From a virus (Duplodnaviria; Heunggongvirae; Uroviricota; Caudoviricetes): a DNA stretch of 64,000 bases. A model generated the notes under the pieces. That model was not told where the DNA came from, made no database searches, and saw only the letters and a list, made by a program, of their open reading frames with translations. The stretch lies in IMG/VR virus record IMGVR_UViG_3300050821_008494. The stretch is one strand, 5' to 3'. Numbering within the stretch: position 1 is the stretch's first letter; the number at the start of each line of letters is the position of its first letter. Below are positions 29,731 to 64,000 of the stretch, piece after piece. Position numbers and translations under genes: made by a program.

Positions 29731-30351
29731 TTGATACTCCAACTCCTCGTCGGACTTAGCCTCGTTCTCGCAGGCTACCAAGATGTCAAGGAGCGCAAGG
29801 TCAGGGACTTCTTCTGGCTACCCGGAGCTGTCGGTCTAGCAATCGCAATCCTCATCCTCCGCTCTCCATCTCTAGTCTTTGCCGTCGTCCTAGTCGGCAT
29901 CATAGCATTCTTCGTCGCCAAGGCAGGTATGTTCGGTCAAGCAGACGGCATAGCGTTCCTCTTCATCATAGCAGACCCTGCCCCATACGCTCCGGCACCA
30001 GCTCTAATCGTTCTGGCCTTCGTAGTCGTGGCGCACTCAGTATTCCTCTACAGAAAGGGCTTCATCAGGAAGCTCACCATAAGCCTCGACCGCTTCAACT
30101 CAGAAGCCCAGTGGATTCCACGGAGTCTAATCGTGAACGGAGTCAAGACCATGAACCTCATGAACGTCAACAACTCCCGCGAGCGAATCGAGAAGGCGAG
30201 CAAGGCAAGGGAGAACGACGAAGTCAAGCAGGACGTTCAAGTTGAGGTAGTCTACGGCGTGCCAACAGTAGCCTACATTGCCGTGGCTTACGTTGGCTAC
30301 GTCGTCTTCCTCGCTTTTGCCGCACCGCACTTTCTCTTCTCAGTCCCGTGA
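29731..30351 (+). CDS. Archaeal type IV prepilin/preflagellin peptidase (A24, FlaK/PibD-like)
   Basis: Both catalytic Asp contexts: GYQDVKERKVRD and GQADG; multiple TMs; C-terminal VYGVPTVAYIAV. Confidence 0.8.
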   Translation: MILQLLVGLSLVLAGYQDVKERKVRDFFWLPGAVGLAIAILILRSPSLVFAVVLVGIIAFFVAKAGMFGQADGIAFLFIIADPAPYAPAPALIVLAFVVVAHSVFLYRKGFIRKLTISLDRFNSEAQWIPRSLIVNGVKTMNLMNVNNSRERIEKASKARENDEVKQDVQVEVVYGVPTVAYIAVAYVGYVVFLAFAAPHFLFSVP

Positions 30352-60089: not shown

Positions 60090-63000
60090 ATGAGTCTGAA
60101 CGCACTTTCTCCAACGTCGGTCGGAAGAAATTCTCCCGCATTCTCCCCGACTTCAGTATTCAACGCACCAACCGCTGTTGGCTATGTCCCGGCTCCCGTA
60201 AACCCTAACCCATCTCTCAAAGTTGACACCTCTCCCTCTGCTCATCTTAATCCTGCGAAAGTCTCGGCAGCTACCTCGAATGCCGCAGCTCTCAATCAGA
60301 CTCTTGCTGCCAACGCCTCTCAAAAGTTTCTGACAATCACGATGCCAGACGGCTCAACCGTCTACGCCGAATACGGAAGAGTCGTGCCCCAAGCTCGCTT
60401 CCAGAACGACATGGCAGCGGCAGGCCTCAGTGCTACTCTTCAGCAGAACAAGAGTTCCCCGTTTGCTCAGATTCAAACTCCAAACGGAATAGTCTACGCG
60501 GAGAACGGAGTTGTCGTCTCCGCAGAGCAGTTTACCAGAGACCTCGCGGCATCTGGCATAGCTCAGACCTTGAAGCAGAACGCTAGTCAATCCTTCGTCC
60601 AGATTCAGACCGACTCAGGAATCATCTACGCCGAGAAGGGAGTCCAAGTCTCTGCTGCCAAGTTCCAGCAGGACCTCCAGAATGCGCAAGCTCCCAATCC
60701 GAAGACTCTAAACTTGTTCAGCAAGCTCTCTCTCAATCAACAGGCTAACTCCCTCTCTACTCTCTCCGAGCTTATAGCAAACCTGAAGGCAGAACTGGGT
60801 TCTTCGCCTTCATCTGACCGTGTGAATGCCTACAACCAAGCCGTCAACACCTACAACCAAGAGACCTCAATCTACAACGCTGGAGCGAACAAGGCTAACG
60901 CGGCCTCCCAAGCTCAGGCAAGCGCAATCCTCTCACTCTCCGGGCAAACTCTAAGTGCCCTGACTCTTTCTCAGTATCTGAACAACGAGGGAGTCAACCA
61001 GCCTACGATAACAGTCAACGGGAAGTCTATGACTCTAAGTCAATACGCTCAGCAGAACCCTTCTCAGAAGTTTGCTGTGACTGCTACCAAGAGCGCAGAC
61101 GGCACAGTGAACTTCTCTCTCAAGAGCACAACGGCTCCAGCAGCGTCCGCTCCAAAGTCATCTCCGGTTGAGAGCGCGTCAGCTACTGCTTACAACGACA
61201 TCACTGCAGGATTCACTGACCTCTTTAGAGCCGGAGTCTCAACCGGCATAGCCACAAGACAGGCCGCAGCCAAAGTGGGAATAGGCAAGGCCCCGCCGAA
61301 GGGCACTCAGCCCTCAGACCTCAGCCTCCTCGGATTCTCCGAGGCAGAGACAGAGCAGTTTGCAGGGAGCACGGCAGGCTACCTATTCCCCGGCGCTGCG
61401 GTCTTGAAGGGCATCGGAAGCCCCGGCGAAGGAACAGGAGCCAGACTCTTCGACATAGGCGTTGGTGTCCTTCCATTCCTTCCTCTCGGAGACGTAGCAG
61501 GCGTAGCCGCAAAAGCAGGAGGTAAGGCAGCAACCGTGGCGAAGTTCGGAACATCGTTTGCCGGCAGGACCCTAATCGGTTCTGGATTCGGAGCAGTAGG
61601 AGGCCTAGCATACGGTGAAGACCCTCTCCAAATCGGAGAGAGCGCCCTTCTTGGTGGACTCTTCGGAGGACCCGGAGGCAGCATCGCAAGCCGTGTCAGT
61701 GGTAGGCTCGGAGAATCGCTGAGTGGCGCAACATCAAGCATCTCTCAGAAGCTCAAGGTTTCAGACGTCGGTGTAGCAGTAGCCAAGGCCAAAGTTGCTC
61801 TGAGCAGGCCACAGAACCCCGGTTCTAACTTCATGGCAAGCATAGACCAACTCTTTGGGAGAGAGCCCGGTCTTGCCGAGGAAGAGTCCATAGACTACTA
61901 CGCCGTAGGCAGTCGGACAAGCACCACTGCCAGAGGAGCGCCCATACGCAGTGGCCTTACTCAGGACATAGTCCGAGAGTCCTCAGACGCTATCGGTGGT
62001 TTGGCGGGTCTTTCATCTCGGCGTAGCTTCATTGAGAACTACCTCAGCGAAGGCATACCAAGCCAATACGAGGAGTCTGCCCAAGTCCAAATAGAAAGCT
62101 CTCGCTCCGTTGCCAAGGGAGGCCCCCCAACTTCAAAACTCGCAGATGAATTCCGTTTCGTCAAGGGTCTCGAAGAGGGCTCAGGAGGCCCCGAGCTGAT
62201 GCTCAGAACAAAATCAGACCGTGCACTCTATGAGGACCAGCTCAATTTTGGACGCCTAGACGACTACTTCGGTGTCAAGTCTTCGGAAGAGGGAGTTGGT
62301 GAGTCTACCGCTTCCAAGAGTCAGAAGGTTGGGGATGTAGCATCTCTTCAGAGAGGTGCCCAAGAACTTAACGACATCGACTCACTGTTTTCGCAGGAGC
62401 AGGAATCTGCCAAGGTTGCCAAGGCCGCGAGGGTAGCAAAGGCTACTGACGACACTTCTGGTCAGACTGAAGTGGCTTCCAAGAGCGGACAATCTTCAAT
62501 GCAAGTTGCTCGTGAAGAGGAGACTTCCACTCTCATGAGCATAGATGACATGGTGGCTGAATCTCGTCCTGCGACTACAGGACGCAGTAGACCGAGGATT
62601 GACTACGACTACCTCTCATACACACCTTCTCCTCCCGGTTACGAAGGACCTTCGATTGGAGAGCGTTCCTACGACCCAACCCAATCATATCTCTCCGGAC
62701 TCCGCAACGAGGTCCGCGCACCATCAGACCAAGGCACATCCTCCTTCCTGAACTCCTACCTCGGACTTGGCGGTCGTTCGTCACTAGGACTAGGTTCAGG
62801 CCTCGGTCTCGGAACAATCCAGCCTCTCGGACTTAGAGCACCGTCCGTCCTCGGGCTCGGTCTCTCAGAGACCTCAATCCTCGGCCTCGGTCAAGCTACC
62901 CAGATGCAGCAGCTCCTCGGAGTCCAGAGCGTCCAAGCTACCGTTCAAGCTACACAACAGGTTCAGACAACGGAGACTACTACTCGCACAATCCTCGAAG

Positions 63001-63257
63001 AGATTGGCGACTATACTCTGGCAGACGAGTTGACAACCAACGAGGACTTTTCATTCCTCCCTCCACTTCAAAGTGATGTCCCAGAGCAGCCGAGGCGAAG
63101 CAGGAAGCGGACCGTCTACAAGCCTACCAAAGTCAGGAACCGTATTGCCCTGAACATAGCAGGCAGCTTCGGCGACGTCGCAGAGGACCTCTTGGGCGAC
63201 ATGTCGTCCGGCCTCATGGACTTCGGCGCAGAAGGAATACTCGGAGGCCTCTTCTGA
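60090..63257 (+). CDS. 1055-aa low-complexity probable virion protein
   Basis: Three ~44-aa repeats (I.T..G.VYAE.G..V....F..D), a central Gly-rich hydrophobic segment, an S/G/L- and Q/T-rich C-terminus. Confidence 0.75.
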   Translation: MSLNALSPTSVGRNSPAFSPTSVFNAPTAVGYVPAPVNPNPSLKVDTSPSAHLNPAKVSAATSNAAALNQTLAANASQKFLTITMPDGSTVYAEYGRVVPQARFQNDMAAAGLSATLQQNKSSPFAQIQTPNGIVYAENGVVVSAEQFTRDLAASGIAQTLKQNASQSFVQIQTDSGIIYAEKGVQVSAAKFQQDLQNAQAPNPKTLNLFSKLSLNQQANSLSTLSELIANLKAELGSSPSSDRVNAYNQAVNTYNQETSIYNAGANKANAASQAQASAILSLSGQTLSALTLSQYLNNEGVNQPTITVNGKSMTLSQYAQQNPSQKFAVTATKSADGTVNFSLKSTTAPAASAPKSSPVESASATAYNDITAGFTDLFRAGVSTGIATRQAAAKVGIGKAPPKGTQPSDLSLLGFSEAETEQFAGSTAGYLFPGAAVLKGIGSPGEGTGARLFDIGVGVLPFLPLGDVAGVAAKAGGKAATVAKFGTSFAGRTLIGSGFGAVGGLAYGEDPLQIGESALLGGLFGGPGGSIASRVSGRLGESLSGATSSISQKLKVSDVGVAVAKAKVALSRPQNPGSNFMASIDQLFGREPGLAEEESIDYYAVGSRTSTTARGAPIRSGLTQDIVRESSDAIGGLAGLSSRRSFIENYLSEGIPSQYEESAQVQIESSRSVAKGGPPTSKLADEFRFVKGLEEGSGGPELMLRTKSDRALYEDQLNFGRLDDYFGVKSSEEGVGESTASKSQKVGDVASLQRGAQELNDIDSLFSQEQESAKVAKAARVAKATDDTSGQTEVASKSGQSSMQVAREEETSTLMSIDDMVAESRPATTGRSRPRIDYDYLSYTPSPPGYEGPSIGERSYDPTQSYLSGLRNEVRAPSDQGTSSFLNSYLGLGGRSSLGLGSGLGLGTIQPLGLRAPSVLGLGLSETSILGLGQATQMQQLLGVQSVQATVQATQQVQTTETTTRTILEEIGDYTLADELTTNEDFSFLPPLQSDVPEQPRRSRKRTVYKPTKVRNRIALNIAGSFGDVAEDLLGDMSSGLMDFGAEGILGGLF

Positions 63258-63409: not shown

Positions 63410-63571
63410 ATGCCAAAGAAGTTCAAGGTCTACTACCGGCCACCGAAGGTCAGGACTGCAATCTATCAAGGAATCTTCGAGGACGAGACAGAAGAAGGGG
63501 CACGCAGGAAGGCCATAGCGAATTATCCAGCTATGGTATTCGAATTCACGGGGGCCTTGGAAATTGGCTAA
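63410..63571 (+). CDS. Hypothetical protein (53 aa)
   Basis: Manually translated MPKKFKVYYRPPK... Confidence 0.55.
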   Translation: MPKKFKVYYRPPKVRTAIYQGIFEDETEEGARRKAIANYPAMVFEFTGALEIG

Positions 63572-63878
63572 CCAGCCAGCCTACATCTGGGCAATAGTCT
63601 TCTCATCCATCGGCCTCTTCCTCACATGGTTCGGCTACAAGCTCCTCGTCCCGGTCTTCAACATGACTGTCGGCTCCGTCGCTCCGGGCTACCCCGCGAT
63701 GGTAAACAACAACCCGACCTACGTCAATGGATTCAATACAATCGTCTCCGAGGTCAACATACTCTTCCAATACTCCTTTGCCGTGATAGGCCTCGGCATC
63801 GTCGCCGTCTTCGTAGTCATCTTCGCATACCGCACTGTCTTCGGCTCCACAGCTGCATCCTACGAGGAGGCCTACTAA
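63564..63878 (+). CDS. Hydrophobic helical-hairpin protein; candidate spindle-shaped-virus-type coat protein
   Basis: TM1, NMT sequon and polar loop, TM2 ending VVIFAYR. Confidence 0.5.
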   Translation: MANQPAYIWAIVFSSIGLFLTWFGYKLLVPVFNMTVGSVAPGYPAMVNNNPTYVNGFNTIVSEVNILFQYSFAVIGLGIVAVFVVIFAYRTVFGSTAASYEEAY

Positions 63879-64000
63879 TGAACACCCGCAAACTCCTCAA
63901 CCGATTCTTCGGCAAGAAGCGCCATGCAGTCGGAGGGTGGGTCATCGCCGTAGTCTTTCTGGGTTTGATAGTCTTCGCCTTCATAATGACTCCAATCAAC
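63878..64000 (+). CDS. 3'-truncated protein with class III (pilin-like) signal; candidate coat protein
   Basis: MNTRKLLNRFFGKKRHA|VGGWVIAVVFLGLIVFAFIMTPIN, manually translated. Confidence 0.5.
   Translation, partial: MNTRKLLNRFFGKKRHAVGGWVIAVVFLGLIVFAFIMTPIN

What the first reader, a model, noticed from the sequence alone, without database searches (positions are those of the whole stretch)
63564..64000. Tandem spindle-virus-like coat genes, one with a pilin-type signal
Seen: 63564 is helix / sequon loop / helix ending AYR; 63878 begins with a basic leader KKRHA followed by a hydrophobic helix ending TPIN. Known (from memory): fusellovirus VP1/VP3 are hydrophobic hairpins with glycosylated loops. 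No terminase, portal or HK97 capsid is in the window. Inference: an unusually large spindle-shaped or enveloped archaeal virus whose coat is processed by its own peptidase (29731). The -2 residue is His rather than the usual Lys/Arg, which might give specificity for the viral enzyme.
Basis: partly seen in the sequence, partly recalled or inferred. Interest (0 to 1): 0.75.

Follow-up and report, generated by a model that had tools for sequence, protein, structure and literature searches.

The report
Paired membrane-hairpin genes, archaeal virus-like element
Two adjacent genes of a roughly 114-kb virus-like element of soil ammonia-oxidiser-type archaea encode small two-helix membrane proteins shaped like spindle-virus coat proteins; one has a pilin-style leader that the element's own peptidase could remove, but neither kinship to known coat proteins nor the cleavage is shown.

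Summary
Window 63564-63878 encodes a 104-aa two-helix membrane hairpin. Position 63878 starts a 103-aa protein (full length P0010) with a basic leader, a hydrophobic helix, a loop and a second helix.

Both genes are real. They are conserved in 6-8 metagenome contigs, under purifying selection, and always lead the same module: giant Ser/Gly-rich protein, ORF1, ORF2, a ~610-aa secreted protein, a ~137-aa membrane protein, then large secreted proteins.

The family is tiny: 3 clusters among 1.84 billion representatives. It has no Pfam, PHROG or PDB match.

- **ORF1:** no similarity above chance to fusellovirus VP1/VP3 or His1 VP21.
- **ORF2:** its family profile gives a weak similarity to fusellovirus VP1 over the leader, helix 1 and loop start (12-16 bits, shuffle p 0.001-0.02).
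- **Fold searches:** they cannot discriminate, because the hairpin matches thousands of chains.
- **ORF2 leader:** it ends K-R-x-[A/G], like Nitrososphaerales pilins (R-x-A|ISPF).
- **Peptidase:** the element's A24 peptidase keeps both catalytic Asp. A distant relative carries a mini-A24, and a third related contig carries a presenilin-family gene.

Best reading: virion membrane or coat hairpin proteins, one matured by a prepilin-type peptidase. This is inferred, not shown. The scan had already noted this element, the same block on a duplicate copy, and a separate hairpin cassette.

The parts
63564..63878 (+). ORF1: a 104-aa two-helix integral membrane hairpin with no leader and an acidic-aromatic C-terminal end (..YEEAY)
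63878..64000 (+). ORF2, first 41 codons. The full protein (P0010, 103 aa) has a basic leader ending K-R-H-A, hydrophobic helix 1, a loop, helix 2 and the C-terminus QKRTSGEEVI
63410..63571 (+). 53-aa soluble small ORF whose stop overlaps the ORF1 start. It is called as a gene on the source contig and is absent at this position in L001-L004
60090..63257 (+). 1055-aa Ser/Thr/Gly/Gln-rich protein with a Gly-rich hydrophobic centre and a conserved basic C-terminal motif (..NR[IVL]A..I[AG][GS]S[FL]GD). It is the first gene of the conserved module
29731..30351 (+). A24-family (prepilin-type) aspartyl peptidase, 206 aa, with D18 and D72 (GQADG) retained. It is the candidate enzyme for processing ORF2

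Best explanation
ORF1 and ORF2 are the two small hydrophobic alpha-hairpin membrane proteins of the virion surface/coat module of a roughly 114-kb virus-like element. Its host is probably a soil member of the Nitrososphaeria.

**Proposed mechanism (inferred, not shown)**
1. Both proteins insert into the host membrane with their ends on the cytoplasmic side.
2. ORF2 is made as a precursor. Its short basic leader (..K-R-x-A/G) is clipped at the cytoplasmic face by a prepilin-type A24 peptidase, either the element's own (29731-30351) or the host's. This parallels the removal of the leader of fusellovirus VP1 just before its first helix.
3. The mature hairpins, with ORF1 as a leaderless partner in the way VP3 partners VP1, pack side by side into the hydrophobic shell or membrane layer of the particle.
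4. The downstream secreted, C-terminally anchored proteins are mounted on that layer.

**What is shown:** the genes, their architecture, their conservation, the synteny, the leader motif, an intact peptidase, and the co-occurrence of such peptidases with the module.

**What is inferred:** presence in the virion, the cleavage, and the shape of the particle.
For: **Architecture and conservation**
- Both proteins are two-helix hairpins.
- Synteny is conserved across contigs that have diverged to 35-41% identity.
- ORF1 is under purifying selection.
- The gene order (hairpin protein, small membrane proteins, then signal-plus-anchor proteins) resembles the His1 structural block.

**Link to known spindle-virus coat proteins**
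- The ORF2 family profile aligns to SSV VP1 from the leader patch through helix 1 to the 'QVNxLxSG' loop start, at 12-16 bits.
- Block-shuffle p is 0.0008-0.016, and reversed sequences score below 0.
- The best of 157 hydrophobic decoys scores 5.9 bits.
- The only Pfam-named neighbours in the language-model search are the His1_capsid and VP1_VP3 clusters, at 0.80 and 0.76, which counts as a lead only.

**Leader and peptidase**
- The leader varies in length (5-17 aa) but ends K-R-x-[A/G] in 7 of 8 members; the L004 member (K-K-R-R-G|SGY) fits only with a one-residue shift.
- Nitrososphaerales pilins encoded next to the cellular peptidase read R-x-A|ISPFIATV.
- The viral A24 keeps both catalytic Asp. 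Its nearest cellular relatives are Nitrososphaerales and Nitrosopumilales, at 38-43% identity.
- A distant relative of the element carries a 144-aa A24 with both Asp. A third related contig carries a presenilin-family gene.
- SSV1 VP1 is cleaved at ..KLTKG|EATNIGVLLGL by a protease that is still unknown. The five residues before the site are essential (PMC5748691; sequence).

**No rival capsid system in the window**
- No head-tail or other capsid family appears among the hits listed for the window; the two bulk scans show only the first 25 families each.
Against: - There is no proteomic, expression or particle evidence.
- ORF1 has no similarity above chance to any spindle-virus coat protein.
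- No member hits PF06281 or PF25665. hhalign probabilities are 0.6% and 6.8%.
- The VP1 similarity is confined to helix 1 and the loop start. It depends on the family profile and is weak for the window's own protein (5.6 bits).
- The hairpin fold matches thousands of unrelated chains, so structure cannot discriminate.
- A basic N-terminus followed by small residues is also what the positive-inside rule gives any membrane helix with its N-terminus inside.
- Two members have an uncharged residue at -2, which the published archaeal rule calls critical (PMC4371748).
- Another hairpin cassette elsewhere in the genome was read by an earlier agent as the coat protein (e1-1877615, not tested here).
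- About 50 kb of the genome was not readable.
Confidence: 0.45

Rival explanations
1. The particle is enveloped or pleomorphic (pleolipovirus-like or vesicle-like), or its true coat protein is the separate five-copy hairpin cassette about 25 kb downstream. ORF1 and ORF2 would then be accessory membrane or matrix proteins that anchor or organise the downstream spike-like glycoproteins, not the major coat.
For: - The module pairs small membrane proteins with a ~610-aa protein that has a signal peptide, an all-beta ectodomain and C-terminal membrane helices.
- ORF1 lacks any VP1/VP3 similarity.
Against: - The ~610-aa model is of low confidence (pLDDT 56), so no spike or fusion fold could be assigned.
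- No pleolipovirus family was hit in PHROGs.
- The genome is about ten times larger than any known pleolipovirus genome (general knowledge).
Confidence: 0.2
2. ORF1 and ORF2 are non-structural membrane proteins, for example a holin/antiholin-like egress pair or superinfection-exclusion proteins. The neighbouring secreted proteins would be envelope-degrading or surface-modifying enzymes.
For: - Their size (about 100 aa), two membrane helices, charged C-terminal tails and tandem arrangement are typical of class II holins (general knowledge).
Against: - No holin family hit was found. The only weak holin-labelled PHROG hit lies in the giant protein (E 0.3).
- The tails are acidic rather than basic.
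- The module is conserved as a block together with very large anchored proteins, which is more typical of structural modules such as that of His1.
Confidence: 0.13
3. The element is a plasmid or integrative-conjugative element rather than a virus. ORF2 would be a pilin-like subunit, processed by the element's prepilin peptidase, of a conjugation or adhesion apparatus.
For: - Thaumarchaeal integrative-conjugative elements are known to carry a prepilin peptidase and pilins (PMC6563490).
- The element family carries tyrosine integrases.
- No capsid gene has been identified.
Against: - No VirB4, VirD4, FlaI or PilB-type ATPase family appears among the Pfam and PHROG hits listed for the window.
- ORF2 has a second membrane helix and no globular pilin domain, and it does not hit PF07790.
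- The replication and nucleotide-metabolism gene set resembles that of large viruses.
- No relative was found in 185,579 species genomes.
Confidence: 0.08

Closest known systems
Fuselloviridae VP1/VP3 major and minor capsid proteins (Pfam PF06281; SSV19 VP1, PDB 7XDI)
   Same: - They are proteins of about 75-100 aa made of two hydrophobic helices joined by a polar loop, encoded as a tandem pair.
- One (VP1) carries a variable N-terminal leader removed just before helix 1, after a conserved short basic patch ending G/A. The other (VP3) has no leader.
- Helix 2 ends AY[K/R].
- The ORF2 family profile aligns weakly to VP1 over the leader patch, helix 1 and the loop start.
   Different: - No PF06281 hit was found.
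- ORF1 shows nothing above chance.
- ORF1 and ORF2 are not clear paralogues of each other: hhalign gives 0.7%, with only a faint hint through the L004 copies (9-12 bits).
- The loops are longer and lack conserved sequons.
- The C-terminal tails are longer and acidic.
- The genome is about 114 kb against 15-24 kb, and the host is mesophilic Nitrososphaeria rather than Sulfolobales.
His1 VP21 capsid protein (Halspiviridae, Pfam PF25665)
   Same: - It is a two-helix hydrophobic hairpin.
- In the genome it is followed by small multi-helix membrane proteins and then by signal-plus-anchor proteins.
   Different: - No sequence similarity was detected.
- VP21 has no processed basic leader.
Archaeal type IV pilins and class III signal peptides (Pfam PF07790; FlaK/PibD substrates)
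   Same: - ORF2 has a short basic leader, a small residue at -1 and then a helix of about 20 hydrophobic residues.
- Its leader end, R-x-A/G, matches that of pilins encoded next to the peptidase in Nitrososphaerales genomes.
- An A24 peptidase is encoded on the same element.
   Different: - ORF2 has a second membrane helix and a 12-aa tail in place of a globular beta-rich domain.
- No PF07790 hit was found.
- Position -2 is uncharged in 2 of 8 members.
- No assembly ATPase or platform gene was seen in the window.
Thaumarchaeal spindle-shaped viruses (Thaspiviridae NSV1; NYMAG-47 group, PMC10866085)
   Same: - The probable host class is the same.
- Their coat proteins were also inferred from hairpin architecture and hydrophobicity rather than from sequence similarity.
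   Different: - Their genomes are about 28 kb.
- No sequence link was found: the tblastn searches of the phage collection were empty. The NSV1 record could not be fetched under the accession tried, so whether it is in that collection is not known.
- An NSV1 protein appeared only as an insignificant fold match (rank 16, E 1.6).

Membership tests
Fusellovirus VP1/VP3 (PF06281) | Match to the family profile PF06281 | tested here: not met
   None of 8 ORF1/ORF2 family members hit at E <= 10, while SSV1 VP1 and VP3 scored 2.4e-19 and 1.8e-38 in the same call. The Pfam model starts after helix 1, so it does not cover the region where ORF2 resembles VP1.
Fusellovirus VP1/VP3 (PF06281) | Remote sequence similarity over the whole hairpin (profile against profile) | tested here: inconclusive
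   hhalign probability is 0.6% for ORF1 and 6.8% for ORF2. The accepted pair VP1/VP3 against His1 VP21 reached only 2.8% with these shallow alignments, so the test has little power. The ORF2 HMM against VP1 gives 12-16 bits with shuffle p 0.0008-0.016. ORF1 is at chance.
Fusellovirus VP1/VP3 (PF06281) | Two hydrophobic helices forming an alpha-hairpin of about 70-100 residues | tested here: met
   See the AlphaFold2 model and the hydropathy table set beside VP1, VP3 and VP21. The feature is not specific: 997 PDB chains match at Z >= 5.
Fusellovirus VP1/VP3 (PF06281) | N-glycosylation sequons in the inter-helix loop | tested here: not met
   ORF1 has one sequon, in 2 of 6 members. The window's ORF2 has none in its loop. 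SSV1 VP1 and VP3 each have two.
Fusellovirus VP1/VP3 (PF06281) | Presence in virions as the major protein | not testable with these tools
   There are no particles or proteomes for this element.
His1-type capsid protein (PF25665) | Match to the family profile | tested here: not met
   No hit at E <= 10. HMM scores of 0-1.7 bits are at shuffle level.
Archaeal type IV pilin / class III signal peptide substrate | Short charged leader, G/A/S at -1, followed by a hydrophobic domain of about 20 residues | tested here: met
   All 8 ORF2 members meet it. ORF2 is the only strong candidate among + strand ORFs of the window.
Archaeal type IV pilin / class III signal peptide substrate | Charged residue at -2 (published archaeal rule, PMC4371748) | tested here: inconclusive
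   Position -2 reads H, R, R, N, V, K, R, and R or G for the L004 member depending on the alignment. One Nitrososphaerales pilin next to the peptidase has G at -2 with R at -3, so the rule may differ in this lineage.
Archaeal type IV pilin / class III signal peptide substrate | Pilin N-terminal profile (PF07790) and a globular domain after the single helix | tested here: not met
   No PF07790 hit. A second membrane helix and a 12-aa tail replace the globular domain.
Archaeal type IV pilin / class III signal peptide substrate | Actual cleavage by an A24 peptidase | not testable with these tools
   This needs co-expression and determination of the N-terminus.
Head-tailed virus (Caudoviricetes) | HK97-fold capsid, portal and large terminase genes | tested here: inconclusive
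   None appears among the Pfam or PHROG hits listed for the window; the bulk scans show only the first 25 families each. None appears in the precomputed Pfam list for about 12 kb downstream. The remaining ~38 kb of the ~114-kb unit could not be read.

The most novel reading that the evidence does not exclude
A very large (about 114 kb) non-head-tailed virus of soil Nitrososphaeria builds its shell from membrane hairpin proteins and carries its own prepilin-type (A24) peptidase to remove the leader of one of them. If so, the still-unidentified protease that matures fusellovirus VP1 (cut at ..K-G|E just before helix 1) would be expected to be the host prepilin peptidase PibD. Coat maturation in spindle-type viruses would then be a borrowed pilin-processing step.
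Probability: 0.2. Interest if true: 0.8.

Novelty: new variant of a known kind. Interest (0 to 1): 0.55.

Why it matters
Few viruses of soil ammonia-oxidising archaea and their relatives have been described. No non-head-tailed archaeal virus of this genome size is known to me.

If these hairpins are shell proteins, they extend the spindle-type way of building a particle to a genome several times larger than any known example.

They also point to a concrete enzyme-substrate pair: a virus-borne A24 peptidase and a leader-bearing hairpin. That pair would make a long-open question testable. The protease that cuts the SSV1 VP1 precursor is still listed as unknown (PMC5748691), and its cut site looks like a prepilin-peptidase site.

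If instead the proteins are ordinary accessory membrane proteins, the finding is a modest annotation of a new small protein family.

Tried and rejected
**Fetching the rest of the genome**
- An exact 62-nt match to the window end found nothing in viral contigs or metagenome contigs.
- No whole genome is held for this window.
- The source contig (Logan, 114,176 bp) gave gene lists but no DNA.

**Sequence searches that found nothing**
- tblastn of ORF1 and two ORF2 relatives against 50,697 phage and archaeal-virus records gave no match at E <= 1 to 10.
- PDB sequence profile searches gave nothing for ORF1 and one chance hit for ORF2.
- PHROGs gave only chance-level hits for the module proteins.
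- The ~610-aa family has no relatives in genome contigs or in IMG/VR.

**Structure searches**
- Foldseek against PDB and BFVD, VIA-align against 48,161 chains, and the ESM Atlas shape search returned only generic helical hairpins such as ATP synthase c subunits and designed bundles. SSV19 VP1 did not stand out.
- The fold of the 613-aa neighbour was too poor to search (pLDDT 56).

**Tools or records not available**
- The NSV1 accession I tried is not in the collection.

**Ideas rejected**
- I considered a programmed frameshift fusing the giant protein to ORF1 in L001/L002. There is no slippery site, and an ACG codon sits exactly where ATG or TTG lies in the other contigs.

Full report
**What is in the sequence**

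The + strand ORF at 63564-63878 starts with TTG, inside the stop region of a 53-aa ORF. It encodes 104 residues. Position 63878 carries an ATG in a TAATG stop-start overlap and opens a frame that leaves the window after 41 codons.

The window belongs to a contig of about 114 kb from a soil metagenome. Its DNA beyond the window could not be fetched. The full ORF2 product was nevertheless recovered from the protein collection as P0010, 103 aa, which sits directly after ORF1 on the same contig.

Hydropathy gives two hydrophobic segments in each protein: ORF1 at 11-29 and 70-88, ORF2 at 22-40 and 72-90. AlphaFold2 models ORF1 as a helical hairpin with pLDDT 76. The one exception is the 'sequon loop', which is a single NMT found in only two of six relatives.

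**Are they real genes?**

ORF1 has five relatives and ORF2 has seven in about 15 billion predicted proteins. An exhaustive HMM search of 1.84 billion cluster representatives found only three ORF1 clusters.

On every contig that could be read, the order is the same:
1. a giant Ser/Thr/Gly/Gln-rich protein;
2. ORF1;
3. ORF2;
4. a protein of about 610 aa with a signal peptide, many sequons, an all-beta body and C-terminal membrane helices ending NRARRPIT;
5. a multi-helix membrane protein of about 137 aa;
6. one or more large secreted or anchored proteins.

The most distant copy (L004) shares only 41% (ORF1) and 35% (ORF2) identity but keeps this order. ORF1 dN/dS is 0.09-0.15 among three contigs.

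**What kind of element is this?**

Nearly all genes lie on one strand. The window holds a family B DNA polymerase, two clamp-loader subunits, primases, RNase H, an XPF-type nuclease, ThyX, MazG, methyltransferases and an A24-like peptidase. No capsid, portal, terminase or conjugation ATPase family appears among the hits listed; the two bulk scans show only the first 25 families each.

The peptidase's closest cellular relatives are in Nitrososphaerales and Nitrosopumilales genome bins, at 38-43% identity over the full length. This points to a Nitrososphaeria host. No relative of the module was found in 185,579 species genomes or in IMG/VR.

Offsets in earlier scan notes fit a unit of about 114.28 kb that a 185-kb record repeats 1.6 times. 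This is my inference. It would mean that about 50 kb lies outside my window. Precomputed Pfam lists for the first ~12 kb of that stretch show nothing structural.

**Test of kinship with spindle-virus coat proteins**

- In one Pfam run, SSV1 VP1 and VP3 hit PF06281 at 2.4e-19 and 1.8e-38. None of eight ORF1/ORF2 family members hit PF06281 or PF25665, even at E <= 10.
- hhalign against a six-sequence VP1/VP3 alignment gave 0.6% for ORF1 and 6.8% for ORF2. The accepted relationship between VP1/VP3 and His1 VP21 scored only 2.8% in the same setting, so this test is weak.
- I therefore scored HMMs directly and compared them with 12-residue block shuffles, which keep the hydrophobic pattern.
  - ORF1 is at chance against all coat proteins.
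  - The ORF2 family HMM scores SSV VP1 at 12.1-16.2 bits, with shuffle p of 0.0008-0.016. Reversed sequences score below zero.
  - Among 157 hydrophobic stop-to-stop fragments from all loci, the best non-family score is 5.9 bits, apart from the L004 copy of ORF1 at 12 bits.
  - The aligned region runs from the residues before helix 1, through helix 1 (..LGL.IF..), to the loop start (QVNxLxSG).
  - The window's own ORF2 reaches only 5.6 bits against the VP1/VP3 model.
- The language-model search named His1_capsid and VP1_VP3 clusters as the only Pfam-labelled neighbours. The scores were 0.80 and 0.76, which the tool rates as leads only.
- Fold searches return generic hairpins and cannot decide.

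Verdict: the architecture is that of spindle-virus coat proteins. Family membership is unproven, with a weak positive signal for ORF2 only.

**The pilin-type leader**

In eight ORF2 sequences the leader varies from 5 to 17 residues. It ends K-R-x-[A/G], followed by [V/N/S]-[A/G]-G-[W/Y] and a strongly hydrophobic helix. The L004 member is one residue shorter after the putative site and reads K-K-R-R-G|SGY, so it fits the motif only with a one-residue shift.

Published rules require G/A/S at -1 and, in archaea, a charged -2 (PMC4371748). Position -2 here reads H, R, R, N, V, K, R, and R or G for the L004 member.

In three Nitrososphaerales bins, a pilin-like gene lies about 1.7 kb from the cellular peptidase gene (PF07790, E about 1e-3). 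Its leaders read MQRRKA|ISPF.., MTARGA|ISPF.. and ..QTRRA|ISPF... This is the same R-x-A ending, once with an uncharged -2.

ORF2 is the only strong class-III-like N-terminus among + strand ORFs of the 64-kb window. It is not a pilin, because it has a second membrane helix, no globular domain and no PF07790 hit.

**The peptidase link**

- The window's A24 protein keeps both catalytic aspartates, D18 and D72 in GQADG, which are invariant in the cellular homologues.
- The distant L004 element carries a 144-aa A24 protein about 10 kb from its ORF1-ORF2 pair, next to a tyrosine integrase. It hits PF01478 at E 1.5e-4 across the whole profile and keeps both Asp.
- A third related contig carries a presenilin-family gene, another intramembrane aspartyl protease type, about 8 kb upstream of the module.
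- Two shorter partial contigs showed none in the parts read.

This co-occurrence is the best support for a functional link, but it is indirect.

The literature shows that SSV1 VP1 is cut at ..KLTKG|EATNIGVLLGL. The five residues before the site are essential, leader length is free, and the protease is unknown (PMC5748691; sequence). No paper in the library connects VP1 with PibD. By contrast, a prepilin peptidase on thaumarchaeal integrative-conjugative elements is already known (PMC6563490). That keeps a conjugative reading alive, although no conjugation ATPase was seen.

**Conclusion**

The most likely reading (about 0.45) is that ORF1 and ORF2 are virion membrane or coat hairpin proteins of a new, very large archaeal virus-like element, with ORF2 matured by a prepilin-type peptidase.

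The rivals are:
- accessory membrane proteins of an enveloped particle whose main coat protein lies elsewhere (0.2);
- a holin-like or exclusion pair (0.13);
- part of a conjugative apparatus (0.08).

The protein families are new and very rare. The kind of protein is known.

The scan had already flagged this element, the downstream surface-protein block on a duplicate copy of the same sequence (e1-1877634), the peptidase (e1-5388129) and a separate hairpin cassette (e1-1877615).

Noticed in passing
L001:9911-9919, L002:4417-4425, L006:9422-9430 (orthologues of window 63564): Three contigs have ACG exactly where the window has TTG and L003 has ATG. GAGG lies 9-12 nt upstream, and the stop of the giant gene overlaps (CGG TAA ACC). 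The first helix encoded downstream is conserved, which suggests ACG initiation or termination-reinitiation.
   Followed up: partly
window 63846-63875; P0010 residues 98-103: ORF1 and ORF2 both end in an acidic stretch plus a hydrophobic or aromatic last residue (..EEAY, ..DDSF, ..EEEF, ..DEVY; ..GEEVI, ..TEDYI). A common partner is possible.
   Followed up: no
L016:10001-10435: A 144-aa minimal A24-type peptidase with both catalytic Asp, lacking the cytoplasmic insert of the cellular enzymes. It lies beside a tyrosine integrase on the distant relative of the element.
   Followed up: yes
55.7-kb contig carrying P0022 (run SRR13378642; no DNA available): A 299-aa presenilin-family (PF01080) gene lies about 8 kb upstream of the module. 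In this contig the two small genes after the giant protein (121 aa and 102 aa) were not found as ORF1 or ORF2 relatives.
   Followed up: no
L007:870-1301(-), L008:866-1300(-), L009:559-1023(-): In Nitrososphaerales bins a pilin-like gene (PF07790, E about 1e-3) sits about 1.7 kb from the prepilin peptidase gene. Its leaders end R-x-A before ISPFIATV, once with Gly at -2.
   Followed up: partly
P0010 residues 91-93 and the aligned positions in A5: A sequon N-x-[S/T] directly before the basic QKR, at the C-terminal end of helix 2, is kept in 7 of 8 ORF2 members. With both ends in the cytoplasm it should not be glycosylated, so its conservation is unexplained.
   Followed up: no
L015:1070-1390(-): A DUF5658 (PF18902) gene lies on the relative's contig. 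SSV1 also encodes a DUF5658 protein. This is a small overlap in gene content with fuselloviruses and may be coincidence.
   Followed up: no
window 60090-63257 and orthologues (L001:8778-9917, L002:1946-4423, L004:5334-10001): The giant low-complexity protein varies from about 380 to about 1,400 aa (1,555 aa from the first start of the L004 frame). It keeps a Gly-rich hydrophobic centre and a C-terminal basic stretch followed by NR[IVL]A..I[AG][GS]S[FL]GD. No family matched. It could be a tape-measure-like or internal virion protein.
   Followed up: no
whole record (inference from the positions of earlier notes): Look-alikes of ORF1/ORF2 and of the ThyX gene lie about 114.28 kb before their positions in this window. 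This matches the 114,176 and 114,287 bp contigs. The 185,236-bp record therefore probably wraps 1.6 times around a circular or terminally redundant genome.
   Followed up: partly
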